This document shows positions 48,001 through 57,000 of a stretch of 64,000 nucleotides of DNA, piece by piece; position 1 is the stretch's first letter, and every line of letters begins with the position of its first letter. The stretch is taken from assembly GCF_964204865.1 (NCBI RefSeq), contig NC_135253.1:16182001-16246000 (forward strand). The letters are read 5' to 3'. This DNA comes from Styela clava (lineage: Eukaryota). Made by a program: the position numbers.

Positions 48001-51000
48001 AACTGCCTTTTTGTCGCTGGCTTTGCTGGCGAAGTCTCGTCTTTGTTTGTAGTTTTGACCCTGAGATTGTTGCAGACGAGCTAGCGGTAATTTTGTCATG
48101 AATACTCATAATCACGATCATTTGGCTGGTGTGGGAGGCGTCTTTCAAACTCTTGATGAAATTGATTTCGCTAGAGGCCCTTGGACGCCAGCTATGTATG
48201 GCGACTACCCCGCTATTAAGCTGTATTTGCAGAAGGGCGGCGAGCCGAATTTGATGGATTCTTCTGGTTACACACCATTGGTAATTATATTTATTTTTTC
48301 AAAAAAATAGCAATAAATAGATGTTACCAAAAATAATTAATGGAAGAACTGAAATTTTTACGTAATGTTGCAACAGTAGGTACGGTACCGGTATTTTGAC
48401 TTTGACTCAGCAGCCTTTAGGATTTTATCTTGCAAATCGGGTTGATCTGAGTTGTGTCTAGTTTTGCTTTTTAGAGGGGTTATAAGCAGTGGTGGGATCC
48501 AGCCGGTTTGCACCGGTTCTATCTGTCTATAGAGCCGTCTAACGGAATTTTATGAGATCAACAAACCGGTTAGCAAAACTGAAAAAACATGACTTTTTGT
48601 AACAGAACCGGCTGAAAAATATGACTTTTGTATGGCATGGATGGAACCGACTGACCTAAAATTTAAATCTCACCACTGGTTATAAGTATATTTCAGTATT
48701 CTCAGTATTCACCAGGTCATATAAAATAAATAAAAATAGAATTTACAGATTTGAGAGACATGATTCAATGATTGAAAAATTTGAAATTCACACACAAACT
48801 TTTTTCTTAAATTTGAATAGACGATACTTGTATTATATGTAGATACTCATATTATAATAATTCAGTTCCTCATAAACAAAACAACAGTTGTCTTCCCAAT
48901 TTTCATAAATTGACCTTATAATATTACCTTCAACTTATGTTGAACACATACGAATACACAATTCAGCTATTAGTACGTTCAAGAGTAAGTACATAATAAA
49001 TTTGCATAATAGTTTGTTAATTATGAACAGTAGCTATATATTGATTCATTGACAGCATTATGCAGCACGGGGTGGATACTATAACATATGCAATGAGTTA
49101 ATTTTGTCTGGAGCAAGTGTTAATCACACAACAAAATCTGGGAAATCAACCTCTTTGCATCGTGCTGCATCACAGGGATGTAATGACGTAGTAAAACTAT
49201 TGATTAAAAATGGTGCAAACCCACGAATGATTGATGACGATGGAAAGACTGCTTTGCATAAGGTAATTTAACTCATAACGTTCTATAATAATATGAACAT
49301 CTAGATTTCTGAGAAGCAAATTAACAGTTTTGAATGTAATTTTATATAAAATTTGTGTCTTATTTTAATTAAGACTTTGTGGAAATGAGTTAAAAGAATT
49401 TAGAATGTTTACCTGATTGTGATTCGTGAGTGGGACAATAGATTATCACTTAGGAATTGTAATATTCTATCAGTGTAGAAAAATGGGTTTTTCAAAAATG
49501 GTTTTTGCCACACTTGTCCCAATTGTATAAATCTTCATATAAATAATCTAATCTCCTGCGAAGGTATTAAATCTATCCTAACCCAGATGCTAGAACATAG
49601 CATGAATCTCACTTGATATGCTTATTTTAACCATTTGCTAAATAGTAGTATATATCTACCTAACTCAAAACAGTGTGGGACAAGTGCGGCAAAGTGGGAA
49701 CGGTGTGCTAATACACAGGGCATGTCATTTTTGGGACCCCGCATATAAGTCATAGTTTATATTAATATCTCAATAAAGAGCTATGAGATCGGAATTTTAA
49801 TGAAAATTGAAATGATGATTTTGAGATATCATAATATTTTGAAGCATCTACTACCTGAATGGACCAGATTTATAAAGCTATATTGTTGCAAGAAAAAGTA
49901 TATATCTCTGTATATTGAAACATGTGTTATGAATACTTTTCAGGCAGCAGAAGGAAATCATGCTGAAGCTTGCAGGCTATTAATAGAAGCAGCGCCAGAT
50001 ACACAAAACGTATTGGATAAAAAAGTCAAATATCCCAAGGATTATGTCCAATGTACGGATGATCAGAAGGAAACTTATAAAGTTATGTGGTGGACTTGAA
50101 AGATATATTCATATCCATGGAATGAAATTCCGTCATTTTAAAAATCCGATCGATTTTAAAAATAGAAAAAAAAAGTCTGTATGAAGACCATGCTTATGGC
50201 GATAACAAGGGACAGAGAGACGCATTCAAACATTCATATTTCTTGACTTAATTCGAGTTTCAGCAATTTGGTCATTTTTAATTGTATGAGTATTCTCTTA
50301 ATTTCAAGTATCAAAAAATGACTGTGCAAAATTTAACATTTTTGATATACAAATTTATATTGTTCAATTTTATTTTGTTAAATTATTTATTCCGTTATTT
50401 TTATTCAACTTTACAGTAGAAGATAATTAATATATATTTTGATAATCTTTGACAATTAACAGAAACTAAATGAGTAGTTTAAGGTTACGTCAACTTGCGA
50501 TTTGGAGTAACAAACTGTGCAAGATACAGTAAGATTACTTTTCATTTTTTATTTTATTTTTTTGTTTAGTAGATATTCACAGAAAAAATATATCTCTAGA
50601 ATAAAAATTATCCTATGTATTTTATTATTTTGACAGCTTATATTGAACCAAATTGAAAGCATAATTTTTCATGTGACCCTATTATAAAATCCATCACTAT
50701 TGAGTCTGAGAAAAATTACAATCAAATACTGGTTATGGAAAATCTCCCGACTCCGACAAAATCAAATTTGGCATATGTAAGCCTTCTATTATAGACTGTT
50801 AAAAGCGTTTTGTGAACTTAATGTTCTTTGAATTTCTGACAATTTGGACTTCTTTTATCACCACTGAAAGTCTGTAATTCAACTCCACGTAGTTTGAAAA
50901 TATGACTCAGTCTCCATTGTTTAACTCCTGACAAAGTTGTCTAACTCCAACTTCATAGCCCAAAACACAATAAGAGGTGATTCTGTAATAGTATTCACTC

Positions 51001-54000: not shown

Positions 54001-57000
54001 TTCAGGCATTCTGTCCGCTTGCCTTTTGTTAACCATATATACCTGGTAATATGTTTTATGTATTTACCTGTGAAACATCTGCCAATCATGATGTGATGTT
54101 ATTTGACATTAAAGTATCTTTTAAAGTTGTTGTCTCTCCACTTTAATAAAAGCTGAAAGGTCACTCATATGGTGATTTATCAAGGTAGAGTTTTGCCGAT
54201 TCAGCAAAACGAGAGAAACAGGCCAGACATGACAGCAGTTAAGGGATGTACACTAAATTGTTGTTAAACTGGGTATGCTTCTACCGAATCAAGCATGATC
54301 TGATTCTGACAGACTTTGCCACATAAAATCAAGAACTTAAGATTAATAAATGTGACAATTATTAGCCAGTTAAAGTATAAAATGAGAATTAATATTTTTT
54401 GATATTTTCTAGACCAATGTATAATACGCACCCCCATATTTGTGAGACTAAATTTGACCATGAAAATGCGTATTATACGCGGAGAAATACGGTACTTCCT
54501 TCACTGTAAAAAAGAGAATTTTTATCGAAACAATGATTATCTTAATCATTCTGCATTCACCAAATTTAATTTTACTTTTCTTGTAGTCAATTTGCAGTGG
54601 TCTGTGAATTCTGTTCAACATGACCATTTTTTCCAATATGTCACTCCTCAAAAAAAAATATCACAAAGTAAACTATTTGGTTATAGCCATCTCTGGCAGT
54701 GGCAGACAGCCAGTTCAAATAGTGTATTACATTTTTACATTCATGCTTTTGTATTTTTTCTCATTGCAGGCCAAACGATTATCCCGACATTAAAAGACTT
54801 TTTACGAACTCCGATATTCAACATATTCCAGATTGTGGACATTGGGTCCATGCTGATAATCCTAAAGAATTTGCTTCTAGAGTCTCGAACTTTTTAGGCG
54901 GCAGTTGATATTTCACCTGAAATTTTTCAGTTCTTTTTTATGATATGCCTTTGACTAATAGCACTTTGTTGATATGTTTGTCTATATATATTTTTAAGTT
55001 ATTGATAGACTGCAATGAACTGATATCCTTGCTCAATTATCATCACAATTTACCAAACTTTCAATTTCTTCATAAAAATTTCGAAATACAATGGTTCTTC
55101 AAAATTTAGATGATGAAAAAAATTTTTTTTTTGTAAAATTTGCCATTTTTTCAATAACATTTAGATTCATATCTGATTTGGCATGCTTTTGCTGCAACAA
55201 ATATTCAGGAAGTTATTTCTGATACAGGAATGTATAACAAATGTGCATTCTCATACCTATAAGTTCAATTCAATACTTGGTGATTTACGTTTTCTTAAAT
55301 ATAAATTCTTGATTCATTATGTAAGGTGGTATACTTCGATGCTAGGCTACTGCCATTAATTTTACGTGGTGTTCTAAGTATCACTGTGTTTTTAGAAAAT
55401 AGATTTTTGTTATAGACGAAATATTTGTGGCGTGCTCAATCATATTTTTTCGTACATTCTACTCAAATTTATGTCTTTACAATGATAGATGTTGTTCTGC
55501 CCTTGATATGATATCAATACTTTCTCATTTGGTAATATTTTGATATGTTCTAAACATTTTGATTGGACATATTTATTTTATCTTTCTATTGTTAAACATC
55601 ATACTTCTTTAGAAATTAGGAACTCTAAACAAAGGCAATGACTACAATGATAAAGTGTTCCTCTTTTTTCATTTTGATATATTATTGATATATAAGACAT
55701 CTGACATAGCGAGTACGTAAATACCTGTAAGCAGCATGTTTATACTTGTCCGATAAAATTGTTAAATAAAAGTGATTTGGAGAGATGTTTCCCCTTGGCC
55801 CCAGAAAAATTCTTTTATACTTGCTTATTTTAAGATTGTTCACATGTTACATAACTGTCATTTTGATTCAAAACATTTAACCACTTGCTATATAGAAGTA
55901 TTACTAGCTGATTTTAATCTACCTATCTATCGCATGTTTACTTGGACTAATATTCAAATACTGCAACTAAGCTAAAACTTGTCAGGAGCGGAAATAAAAA
56001 AGGAATTTAGGGGGTTTTATTGACAAATTATCATTAAATATTCCAATTATTTACCTTAACAAAACTAGACATAGCCTCATTTTAAGTACAAATTTTCTAA
56101 CTAAGTTTGTAATGCTATATTTTTTTTTATTACAATGAATTTGTGTAAATTCTGAAAATATTTCAGTTAGGAAATAGTCTTCAAAAATCTAGTTTATTTA
56201 TTTCGTCACTGAGAAATGTCTTAAGACAATATTGAAATTTCCATCCACGAAGAGGCTCTATTATTTATAACCATTCTGAAATTTTATTTTTCTCTACATT
56301 CAGAATTAGCATAAATGTTTGTATATAAGAAAGTCTATGGCAGTGAAAGGCATTTGGCAACTGCCTTTCCACAACAATATAGATGCCGCCAAGGGAAGTA
56401 CGGAAGTTTGTGTAGTTGGAGTATTCGGCAAAAGTACTTGGGGGCATTCTTCTAAAAGTTGTGTTATTAATCGATTAACAAGAACCTATGAATTTCCAAT
56501 TCACAAACCTTTAAATATGGATCGAAAAAATGAAGATGAAAAAGACAATAGTTTTGAAAAATACATGTGAGTAGATAGTATACAACCATTTACACACAAT
56601 TTTATTTTATATGATTTTTTATATGATATTTTTGGAGTATAAAATGTTTTCAGTTATTATAAGACACGAAGTGTACATTTGCATTGTTTTGCTAATTTAT
56701 TGTTGTTGTTGGAAAACTACGCTTCTCTCTGCAACTGATGGATCAATCGATTTGCTGAATATTTTAATTATATATTCCAAATTTCTTGTCCTGTGGGATC
56801 CGATGTTTCATCAGAAAATTTGGGGCTAGTTCATTAATCGCCGTACTTCTAGTTGGGGTGGCATCATAACTATTTTCGCATATGTCATTTCTAACCCCCA
56901 CCTGGCTATGTCATACAATAATTACGTCATTACAACGTCACAGTGATGAAAGAGGACCAGTCAAAGTATACGGATTGTCACCCAAAACGCGCAGACGATC

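What the first reader, a model, noticed from the sequence alone, without database searches (positions are those of the whole stretch)
48098..56340. Candidate trans-spliced operon ANKRD39 - ABHD11 - SMG8
Seen: three unrelated genes on one strand. The ANKRD39 stop (50099) is only 370 bp from the ABHD11 ATG (50470). That gap has no AATAAA, no CpG-rich promoter-like patch, and ends in a T-rich acceptor. SMG8 also starts just after a strong acceptor (56303) in CpG-poor DNA. The only CpG-rich patch is upstream of ANKRD39 (~47800-48280). Known: ascidians such as Ciona have operons resolved by SL trans-splicing, with the upstream 3' end abutting the downstream acceptor. Inference: one promoter drives a polycistron linking a mitochondrial hydrolase and an NMD regulator. 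The ABHD11-SMG8 link is weaker (1.4 kb gap, with AATAAA near 55766 and 55993).
Basis: partly seen in the sequence, partly recalled or inferred. Interest (0 to 1): 0.7.

Follow-up and report, generated by a model that had tools for sequence, protein, structure and literature searches.

The report
Possible two-gene sea-squirt operon
Three unrelated housekeeping genes lie head-to-tail in the sea squirt Styela clava; the first two are close enough to be an ordinary ascidian operon, but the sequence cannot prove shared transcription, and the third gene probably stands alone.

Summary
The window is Styela clava, a stolidobranch ascidian; it is not human and holds no N. The three gene identities and nearly all coordinates are right.

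- **ANKRD39-like to ABHD11-like:** the stop-to-ATG gap is 370 nt. It has no AATAAA or ATTAAA, and a cis-intron-grade acceptor ends at 50416. This fits the Ciona type of operon (PMC1488885).
  - The missing AATAAA is not unusual by chance.
  - Ascidian promoters are mostly not CpG islands (PMC3333190).
  - The gap's CpG observed/expected ratio is 1.25, the 98.9th percentile locally.
  - Strong acceptors sit before three of the four start codons in the cluster, so they point to 5' splicing in general, not to an operon.
- **ABHD11-like to SMG8:** the gap is 1,428 nt and carries three canonical poly(A) hexamers. The proposed acceptor leaves an out-of-frame upstream ATG.

No transcript data could be reached.

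Verdict: a two-gene operon is a fair but unproven candidate (about 0.45). The three-gene operon is unlikely (about 0.08). If real, it would be an ordinary member of a known kind.

The parts
43288..46233 (+). VPS35L, with a single-exon coding region. It is the upstream same-strand neighbour (context). An acceptor-like site ends at 43259, 28 nt before the ATG.
   Evidence: One tblastn HSP covers residues 1-981 of S. clava VPS35L (P0001) at 99.2% identity. Acceptor at the 97.6th percentile.
47401..48097 (+). Unique CpG-normal, G+C-rich patch upstream of ANKRD39-like. It is the likely promoter and outron of ANKRD39 (inferred). Acceptor-like sites end at 48052 and 48075.
   Evidence: CpG observed/expected 0.93 and GC 0.44. 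The 370 nt before the ATG have observed/expected 1.02. No other copy in the window. The 48052 acceptor is at the 91st percentile; the 48075 site comes from reading.
48098..50099 (+). ANKRD39-like gene, 3 coding exons: 48098-48280, 49056-49262 and 49944-50099, with the stop at 50097-50099.
   Evidence: tblastn of S. clava protein P0123: 100%, 100% and 92% identity per exon. Ankyrin repeats on exon 2. Splice sites read.
50100..50469 (+). The 370-nt stop-to-ATG gap: the candidate ANKRD39 3' UTR and intercistron boundary.
   Evidence: GC 24.6%; 7 CpG, observed/expected 1.25. No AATAAA or ATTAAA. Weak hexamer variants at 50121-50175 and AATATA at 50429.
50396..50416 (+). Best candidate trans-splice acceptor for ABHD11-like. 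The AG ends at 50416, 53 nt before the ATG.
   Evidence: Pyrimidine fraction 0.74; 97.6th percentile, equal to the confirmed cis acceptors; no upstream ATG.
50470..54908 (+). ABHD11-like gene, 7 coding exons: 50470-50528, 51034-51181, 51575-51748, about 51829-51904, 52613-52719, 53382-53572 and 54770-54908.
   Evidence: tblastn of S. clava ABHD11-like isoform X1 (P0121). Splice contexts. Alpha/beta-hydrolase Pfam hits. The start of exon 4 is inferred from the reading frame and was not checked base by base.
50600..50605 (+). The first canonical AATAAA downstream of the ANKRD39 stop. It lies inside ABHD11 intron 1.
54909..56336 (+). The 1,428-nt gap between ABHD11-like and SMG8, with AATAAA at 55765 and 55993 and ATTAAA at 56033.
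   Evidence: CpG observed/expected 0.52. No repeat copy. No reading frame of 70 aa or more falls in this gap among those listed. No Rfam match.
56283..56303 (+). Strong acceptor-like site before SMG8. The AG ends at 56303. An out-of-frame ATG at 56315 follows it.
   Evidence: 99.5th percentile; upstream ATG listed.
56337..64000 (+). SMG8. Exon 1 is 56337-56566. The gene runs off the window end.
   Evidence: Smg8_Smg9 Pfam hits. N-terminal alignments.
56819..57260 (.). CpG-rich repeat with inverted ends in SMG8 intron 1. It is not evidence of a promoter.
   Evidence: Self-complementary ends. Other copies at 26450-26841 and 41943-43175.

Best explanation
This is a compact head-to-tail cluster of unrelated housekeeping genes in Styela clava: VPS35L, ANKRD39-like, ABHD11-like and SMG8. 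Each start codon is preceded by a 3' splice-site-like sequence, as expected if the mRNAs receive a spliced leader.

Within the cluster, ANKRD39-like and ABHD11-like most likely form a two-gene operon of the Ciona type:
1. Transcription starts in the unique CpG-normal patch upstream of 48098.
2. It runs through the 370-nt gap, because no canonical poly(A) signal stops it.
3. The unpaired acceptor ending at 50416 is then trans-spliced to give the ABHD11 mRNA.
4. The ANKRD39 mRNA ends at or close to that same point.

SMG8 is most likely transcribed on its own. ABHD11 would end at one of the canonical signals at 55765-56033.

**Shown:** species, gene models, distances, motifs and acceptor strength.

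**Inferred:** spliced-leader addition, co-transcription and the positions of mRNA ends.
For: - **Species.** The 982-aa frame at 43285-46230 is 99% identical to S. clava VPS35L.
- **Gene ends.** ANKRD39 stops at 50099 and ABHD11 starts at 50470, matching S. clava proteins P0123 and P0121.
- **Poly(A) hexamers.** The gap has no AATAAA or ATTAAA. In contrast, the other two junctions of the cluster are 1.4-1.9 kb long. Their first AATAAA lies 750 to 860 nt after the stop, and each holds several canonical hexamers: AATAAA at 46984 and 47180 with ATTAAA at 46639, and AATAAA at 55765 and 55993 with ATTAAA at 56033.
- **Match to Ciona operons.** In Ciona, operon genes abut without intercistronic DNA. 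16 of 18 upstream cistrons lack AATAAA within 40 nt of the boundary (PMC1488885 passages).
- **Acceptor.** The 50416 acceptor equals the confirmed cis acceptors and leaves no upstream ATG. Sites this strong within 60 nt upstream occur at about 4% of positions.
- **Room for a promoter.** The median Ciona outron is 458 bp (PMC11155486). That is longer than the 317 nt between the ANKRD39 stop and the acceptor, so a typical separate promoter would sit inside ANKRD39.
- **Local density.** S. clava has larger gene-to-gene distances than Ciona (PMC7540406 passages), so 370 nt is unusually tight.
Against: - **No transcript evidence.** No SL-bearing read, poly(A) site, TSS or dicistronic RNA could be examined.
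- **CpG score.** The gap's CpG observed/expected ratio of 1.25 is at the 98.9th percentile locally. It exceeds gene-body depletion, with 3.4 CpG expected and 7 seen (P = 0.056). A high CpG score at low CpG content is how Ciona promoters look (PMC3333190).
- **Weak poly(A) variants.** AATGAA, TTTAAA twice, AATAGA and AAAAAG lie at 50121-50175, followed by a GT-rich stretch. They could end ANKRD39 early and leave about 240 nt for a promoter.
- **Chance.** The missing AATAAA is not statistically unusual.
- **Literature on Styela.** Spliced-leader use and operons are not described for Styela in what I could search:
  - 0 papers hold both 'Styela' and 'spliced leader'.
  - 3 papers hold 'Styela clava' and 'trans-splicing', each term only once or twice; I did not open them.
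  - The S. clava genome paper has no occurrence of 'operon' or 'trans-splic' in its main text.
- **A cautionary case in the same family.** In the styelid Botryllus, a same-strand pair 227 bp apart gave dicistronic transcripts but no SL on the downstream mRNA. The authors favoured read-through (PMC3691228).
Confidence: 0.45

Rival explanations
1. There is no operon. All four genes are separate transcription units that happen to be tightly packed. ANKRD39 ends early at a weak poly(A) variant near 50160-50180. ABHD11 has its own small promoter and short outron in the remaining ~240 nt, and is trans-spliced or cis-spliced at 50416. SMG8 likewise has its own promoter in the last few hundred bases before 56303.
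For: - The gap's CpG observed/expected ratio is 1.25 (98.9th percentile), similar to the ANKRD39 upstream patch at 1.02. Ciona TSS regions have a high CpG score and a low CpG content (PMC3333190).
- A cluster of weak hexamer variants at 50121-50175 is followed by a GT-rich stretch.
- Strong acceptors before the ATG are a general feature here, seen at 3 of 4 genes at the top level. They are also general in Ciona, where 9850 of 12397 non-operon genes are trans-spliced.
- The Botryllus fuhc pair shows that a 227-bp 'featureless' gap need not be an SL operon.
Against: - G+C in the gap is the lowest in the region (0.9th percentile). Ciona promoters show raised G+C.
- No TATAAA occurs in the gap. 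The only TATA-like run, at 50431, lies after the best acceptor.
- A promoter plus outron in about 240 nt is short compared with the 458-bp median outron.
- There is no canonical poly(A) hexamer for ANKRD39.
Confidence: 0.38
2. One reading: one promoter upstream of 48098 drives a three-gene polycistron, ANKRD39-ABHD11-SMG8. It is resolved by trans-splicing at 50416 or 50463 and at 56303.
For: - All three genes are on one strand, and no gene or repeat was detected in the 1,428-nt gap.
- That gap and the 370 nt before the SMG8 ATG are as CpG-depleted as gene bodies (observed/expected 0.52 and 0.49), which fits a region that is transcribed through.
- The acceptor at 56303 is the strongest in the region (99.5th percentile).
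- Operons of three genes exist in Ciona: 185 of 1,310 (PMC2760879).
Against: - Ciona-type operons abut or lie under 100 bp apart.
- Here three canonical hexamers lie 270-540 nt before the acceptor, so ABHD11 most simply ends there.
- Splicing at 56303 leaves an out-of-frame ATG at 56315 that opens a 46-codon frame over the conserved SMG8 start.
- The model needs both junctions to be operonic.
Confidence: 0.08
3. Overlapping units or a cis-spliced leader. In one version, ANKRD39 transcripts run past the ABHD11 start and end at the first canonical AATAAA (50600), inside ABHD11 intron 1. In another, ABHD11 has a short non-coding first exon in the gap that is cis-spliced to 50416.
For: - The first AATAAA after the ANKRD39 stop is at 50600, preceded by AATATA at 50587.
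- Donor-like GTATGA sites lie at 50179 and 50284 in the gap.
- The other 3' UTRs of the cluster would be about 0.75-0.86 kb if their first AATAAA is used, so a UTR of about 520 nt to 50620 would not be out of line.
Against: - It rests on motif matches in AT-rich DNA.
- An mRNA ending at 50620 would carry the ABHD11 start region and an unused strong acceptor and donor.
- There is no support from any transcript.
Confidence: 0.09

Closest known systems
Ciona intestinalis/robusta SL-resolved operons without intercistronic DNA (Satou et al. 2006, PMC1488885; Satou et al. 2008, PMC2760879)
   Same: - Ascidian host.
- Same-strand, functionally unrelated genes.
- A short distance between coding regions.
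- No AATAAA near the boundary.
- A strong acceptor just upstream of the downstream ATG.
- The upstream gene has its own upstream region.
   Different: - Here the mRNA ends are unknown, so abutment (<100 bp) is not shown.
- The species is a stolidobranch for which I found no report of operons or of its spliced leader.
- The gap has a high CpG score.
- The SMG8 junction (1.4 kb, with canonical signals) does not fit.
Botryllus schlosseri fuhc-sec / fuhc-tm pair (PMC3691228)
   Same: - Same family (Styelidae).
- Two same-strand genes separated by a short, 'featureless' gap: 227 bp there, 370 nt stop-to-ATG here.
- Operon status was proposed from the layout.
   Different: - In Botryllus, linked transcripts were seen but no SL was found on the downstream mRNA, and the authors favoured read-through.
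- Here a canonical acceptor precedes the downstream ATG, whereas the first exon of fuhc-tm lacks canonical boundaries at its 5' end.
Oikopleura dioica operons and C. elegans SL1-type operons (as described in PMC1488885 and PMC7986045)
   Same: - One spliced leader serves both monocistronic and operon genes in tunicates.
- Oikopleura upstream cistrons also lack AATAAA.
- The C. elegans SL1-type operons lack intercistronic sequence.
   Different: - Oikopleura spacers are 23-30 nt between defined mRNA ends.
- The three characterised C. elegans SL1-type operons keep AATAAA.
- Neither feature can be measured here.

Membership tests
Ciona-type SL-resolved operon | Adjacent genes on the same strand with nothing between them | tested here: met
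   ANKRD39-like, ABHD11-like and SMG8 are all on the + strand. No reading frame of 70 aa or more, Pfam hit, repeat copy or Rfam match falls in either gap.
Ciona-type SL-resolved operon | The upstream poly(A) site and the downstream trans-splice acceptor abut, or lie under 100 bp apart | not testable with these tools
   This needs mRNA 3' and 5' ends. The 370-nt stop-to-ATG gap is compatible for pair 1. For pair 2, canonical hexamers lie 270-540 nt before the acceptor, which argues against it.
Ciona-type SL-resolved operon | The downstream gene has an unpaired 3' splice acceptor and receives the spliced leader | tested here: inconclusive
   Acceptor-like sites at 50416 (97.6th percentile) and 56303 (99.5th percentile). 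SL addition itself was not observable. Donor-like sites at 50179 and 50284 could pair with 50416.
Ciona-type SL-resolved operon | No canonical AATAAA within 40 nt upstream of the boundary (16 of 18 Ciona cases) | tested here: met
   No AATAAA or ATTAAA anywhere in 50100-50469, and none within 40 nt before 56303. This is weak as a test: 179 of 471 local 370-nt windows lack both hexamers.
Ciona-type SL-resolved operon | The host organism carries out SL trans-splicing | not testable with these tools
   It is established for Ciona and Oikopleura and is cited for Botryllus in PMC3691228. I found no paper on Styela (0 hits). The window holds no SL RNA gene. The Ciona leader motif gave 6 matches with 3 mismatches each, against 3.1 expected. 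Rfam gave nothing.
Ciona-type SL-resolved operon | A single promoter, and dicistronic precursor RNA | not testable with these tools
   No transcript or chromatin data. The CpG-score proxy is ambiguous: 1.25 in gap 1 and 0.49 before SMG8.

The most novel reading that the evidence does not exclude
ANKRD39-like and ABHD11-like are read from one primary transcript in a stolidobranch ascidian, a group in which I found no report of operons. The two mRNAs would be alternative fates of that transcript.
- One fate is trans-splicing at 50416 followed by splicing of ABHD11 intron 1, which yields ABHD11 mRNA.
- The other is 3'-end formation, which yields ANKRD39 mRNA. This would happen at the acceptor itself, or at the only canonical AATAAA (50600), which lies inside ABHD11 intron 1.

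That would place intercistron-less operons before the split of phlebobranch and stolidobranch ascidians. It would also add a variant in which the upstream poly(A) signal lies inside the downstream gene.
Probability: 0.12. Interest if true: 0.45.

Novelty: new member of a known kind. Interest (0 to 1): 0.2.

Why it matters
If confirmed, this would be one more ascidian operon of a type that covers roughly a tenth to a fifth of Ciona genes. Its value is modest.
- It would document such operons in Styelidae, where the one studied case (Botryllus fuhc) was left unresolved.
- It would warn annotators of S. clava that some tightly spaced genes share transcription.

It does not link mitochondrial lipid metabolism to nonsense-mediated decay in any functional way.

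Tried and rejected
1. **Fused gene models as a proxy for conserved adjacency.** The 'longer' searches with ABHD11 exon 6 and ANKRD39 exon 1 covered proteins up to 2000 aa and returned only stand-alone proteins. These were 297 aa (2 hits among 23 candidates) and 181-182 aa (2 hits among 6 candidates). The word-based search reaches only close relatives, so this says little.
2. **Shared contigs in a related species.** Two unnamed transcript-derived relatives are P0122 (ABHD11 homologue, on one contig of 2264 nt) and P0124 (ANKRD39 homologue, on two contigs, the longest 3338 nt). 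That is far longer than the roughly 0.9 kb I estimate from the window coordinates for a monocistronic ANKRD39 mRNA.
3. **Synteny in other tunicates.** No eukaryotic genome collection was available.
4. **Ciona operon lists.** These are in supplementary tables of PMC1488885, PMC2760879 and PMC7986045, which are closed. Whether the Ciona orthologues are operonic is therefore unknown.
5. **Matsumoto et al. 2010 (PMC2860165).** This paper is not held.
6. **SL RNA gene or other RNA genes in the window.** None was found.
7. **CpG density as a promoter detector.** I rejected this as a criterion for ascidians after reading PMC3333190.
8. **The CpG-rich patch in SMG8 intron 1 as an SMG8 promoter.** I rejected this because the patch is a dispersed repeat.
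9. **Spliced models.** I compared them exon by exon only and left out the joined coding sequences.

Full report
**Origin of the window.** The window holds no N and averages about 34% G+C. A 982-codon open frame at 43285-46230 is 99% identical over its full length to VPS35L of Styela clava. The next-best named hits are other ascidians at about 50% identity. The window is therefore S. clava, a stolidobranch ascidian, and not human.

**Gene models, compared exon by exon.** I did not build or search any joined coding sequence.
- *ANKRD39-like.* S. clava protein P0123 (181 aa) maps to 48098-48280, 49056-49262 and 49944-50096 at 100%, 100% and 92% identity. The stop is at 50097-50099.
- *ABHD11-like.* S. 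clava isoform X1, P0121 (297 aa), maps to seven exons from 50470 to 54905. Residue 1 falls on the ATG at 50470.
- *SMG8.* Smg8_Smg9 Pfam matches fall on four exon-sized frames, up to 1e-44. The first exon, from the ATG at 56337, aligns from residues 1-9 of 6 of the 7 representatives found. These include full-length proteins of 939-987 aa. So no upstream coding exon is missing.
- *VPS35L.* A fourth + strand gene lies upstream as a single coding exon, 43288-46233.
- *AMP deaminase.* Its exons lie on the minus strand at about 1566-7520.

**The ANKRD39-ABHD11 junction.**
- The gap 50100-50469 is 370 nt, 24.6% G+C, with no AATAAA or ATTAAA.
- Weaker hexamer variants cluster at 50121-50175, and AATATA sits at 50429. 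The first canonical AATAAA after the stop is at 50600, inside ABHD11 intron 1.
- An acceptor ending at 50416 has a pyrimidine fraction of 0.74 and no nearby upstream AG. It ranks at the 97.6th percentile of + strand AGs in 43-64 kb. The seven confirmed cis acceptors range from the 88.3rd to the 98.6th percentile.
- No ATG lies between 50417 and 50470.

**How this compares with what is known.**
- In Ciona, operon genes abut with no intercistronic DNA. 16 of 18 upstream cistrons lack AATAAA within 40 nt of the boundary, and all 12 of 12 unbiased downstream genes were SL trans-spliced (PMC1488885: passages and section 13 read).
- Operons were defined there as same-strand pairs under 100 bp apart: 1,310 operons with 2,909 genes (PMC2760879 passages).
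- The median Ciona outron is 458 bp (PMC11155486 passages). That is longer than the 317 nt between the ANKRD39 stop and the acceptor.
- Within this cluster, the other two junctions are 1.4-1.9 kb long and each carries several canonical hexamers. The first AATAAA lies 750 to 860 nt after the stop. The ANKRD39-ABHD11 junction stands out from them.

These points make a two-gene operon a reasonable reading.

**What weakens it.**
- *Chance.* The missing AATAAA is not unusual. 2152 of 5000 shuffles of the gap lack it, and 691 of 5000 lack both hexamers. 179 of 471 local 370-nt windows lack both.
- *The CpG argument.* It does not transfer to ascidians. Only 3.5% of 6,313 Ciona promoters meet CpG-island criteria. 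They show a high CpG score at low CpG content (PMC3333190 passages).
- *CpG in the gap.* The gap has 7 CpG against 5.6 expected, an observed/expected ratio of 1.25. That is the 98.9th percentile of local 370-nt windows. It compares with 3.4 expected at gene-body depletion (P = 0.056). On that measure the gap looks as promoter-like as the ANKRD39 upstream patch (1.02). Its G+C, however, is the lowest in the region, which is unlike Ciona promoters.
- *Acceptors are not operon-specific.* An equally strong site within 60 nt upstream occurs at about 4% of positions. Yet three of the four start codons in the cluster have one, and ANKRD39 has a weaker one. In Ciona, 9850 of 12397 non-operon genes are trans-spliced.
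- *No report for Styela.*
  - 0 papers hold 'Styela' with 'spliced leader'.
  - 3 papers hold 'Styela clava' with 'trans-splicing', each term only once or twice, and I did not open them.
  - The broader query, run at 3 of 4 terms, listed 15 of 51 papers. Only three of the listed ones name Styela, and none of those three has 'trans-spliced'. I judged this from the listing only.
  - The S. clava genome paper has no 'operon' or 'trans-splic' in its main text.
- *The Botryllus case.* In the styelid Botryllus, a same-strand pair 227 bp apart gave linked transcripts but no SL on the downstream mRNA. The authors favoured read-through (PMC3691228 passages).

**The ABHD11-SMG8 junction.**
- The gap is 1,428 nt, with AATAAA at 55765 and 55993 and ATTAAA at 56033. 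These lie 270-540 nt before the very strong acceptor ending at 56303. This is not the abutting Ciona layout.
- Splicing at 56303 would leave an out-of-frame ATG at 56315. It opens a 46-codon frame across the conserved SMG8 start.
- In favour of read-through, the gap and the last 370 nt before the SMG8 ATG are as CpG-depleted as gene bodies (0.52 and 0.49).
- The CpG-rich patch at 56819-57260 in SMG8 intron 1 is a repeat with inverted ends. Other copies are at 26450-26841 and 41943-43175, so it is no promoter mark.

**What could not be done.**
- No transcript, TSS or chromatin data, and no eukaryotic genome collection, were within reach. Synteny and SL mapping stayed unchecked.
- The supplementary operon tables of the Ciona papers are closed.
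It might have shown whether two unnamed transcript-derived relatives share a contig. These are P0122 (on a 2264-nt contig) and P0124 (longest contig 3338 nt).
- The searches for fused ANKRD39-ABHD11 gene models found only stand-alone proteins, but they reach only close relatives.

**Verdict.** My estimates for the interpretation, each made on its own question, are:
- about 0.45 that ANKRD39-like and ABHD11-like are a Ciona-type two-gene operon with SMG8 separate;
- about 0.38 that all the genes are independent;
- about 0.08 for the three-gene operon;
- about 0.09 for overlapping units or a cis-spliced leader.

Even if true, this is one more member of a well-known class, with no functional tie implied between the genes. 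Interest is low.

Noticed in passing
window 43288-46233 (+): VPS35L has an uninterrupted 981-codon coding region. I recall that the gene has many exons in vertebrates; I did not check this. The S. clava genome paper says the species has fewer intron-less genes than Ciona, and Ciona operons are enriched in single-exon genes. It may be a retrogene that replaced the parent copy. A transposon-like repeat ends about 110 nt before its ATG.
   Followed up: partly
window 26450-26841, 41943-43175, 56819-57260: A family of CpG-rich elements with inverted ends of about 90-130 nt. The two short copies are about 0.4 kb and the longer one about 1.2 kb. One sits just upstream of VPS35L and one in SMG8 intron 1. 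No Pfam domain was found on reading frames of 70 aa or more inside the long copy.
   Followed up: partly
window 40389-41373: A long, nearly perfect inverted repeat. Its arms together span about 340 nt each (40389-40728 and 41023-41373, 96-100% complementary) around a spacer of about 294 nt. Just after it, at about 41370-41700, is a G+C-rich stretch that I read as tRNA-like. ARAGORN called no tRNA there.
   Followed up: partly
window 56315-56455 (+): An out-of-frame upstream ATG opens a 46-codon frame that overlaps the conserved SMG8 start at 56337. It is either a regulatory upstream reading frame in an NMD-factor gene, or a sign that the acceptor in use lies closer to the ATG. AGs ending at 56329 and 56333 can be seen.
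   Followed up: no
window 49944-50096 and 43288-46230: The window differs from the database S. clava proteins at several residues. ANKRD39 exon 3 is 92% identical and ABHD11 exons 2 and 7 are 94-96% identical by tblastn, partly from alignment overhang at exon ends. VPS35L is 99.2% identical. The window therefore seems to come from another haplotype or individual than the reference proteins. The genome paper reports 1.72% heterozygosity.
   Followed up: no
window ~1566-7520 (-): AMP deaminase exons lie on the minus strand, with four Pfam hits from 1e-14 to 6e-26. The stretch 9-43 kb gave almost no Pfam hits on reading frames of 70 aa or more, so I did not work out its gene content.
   Followed up: no
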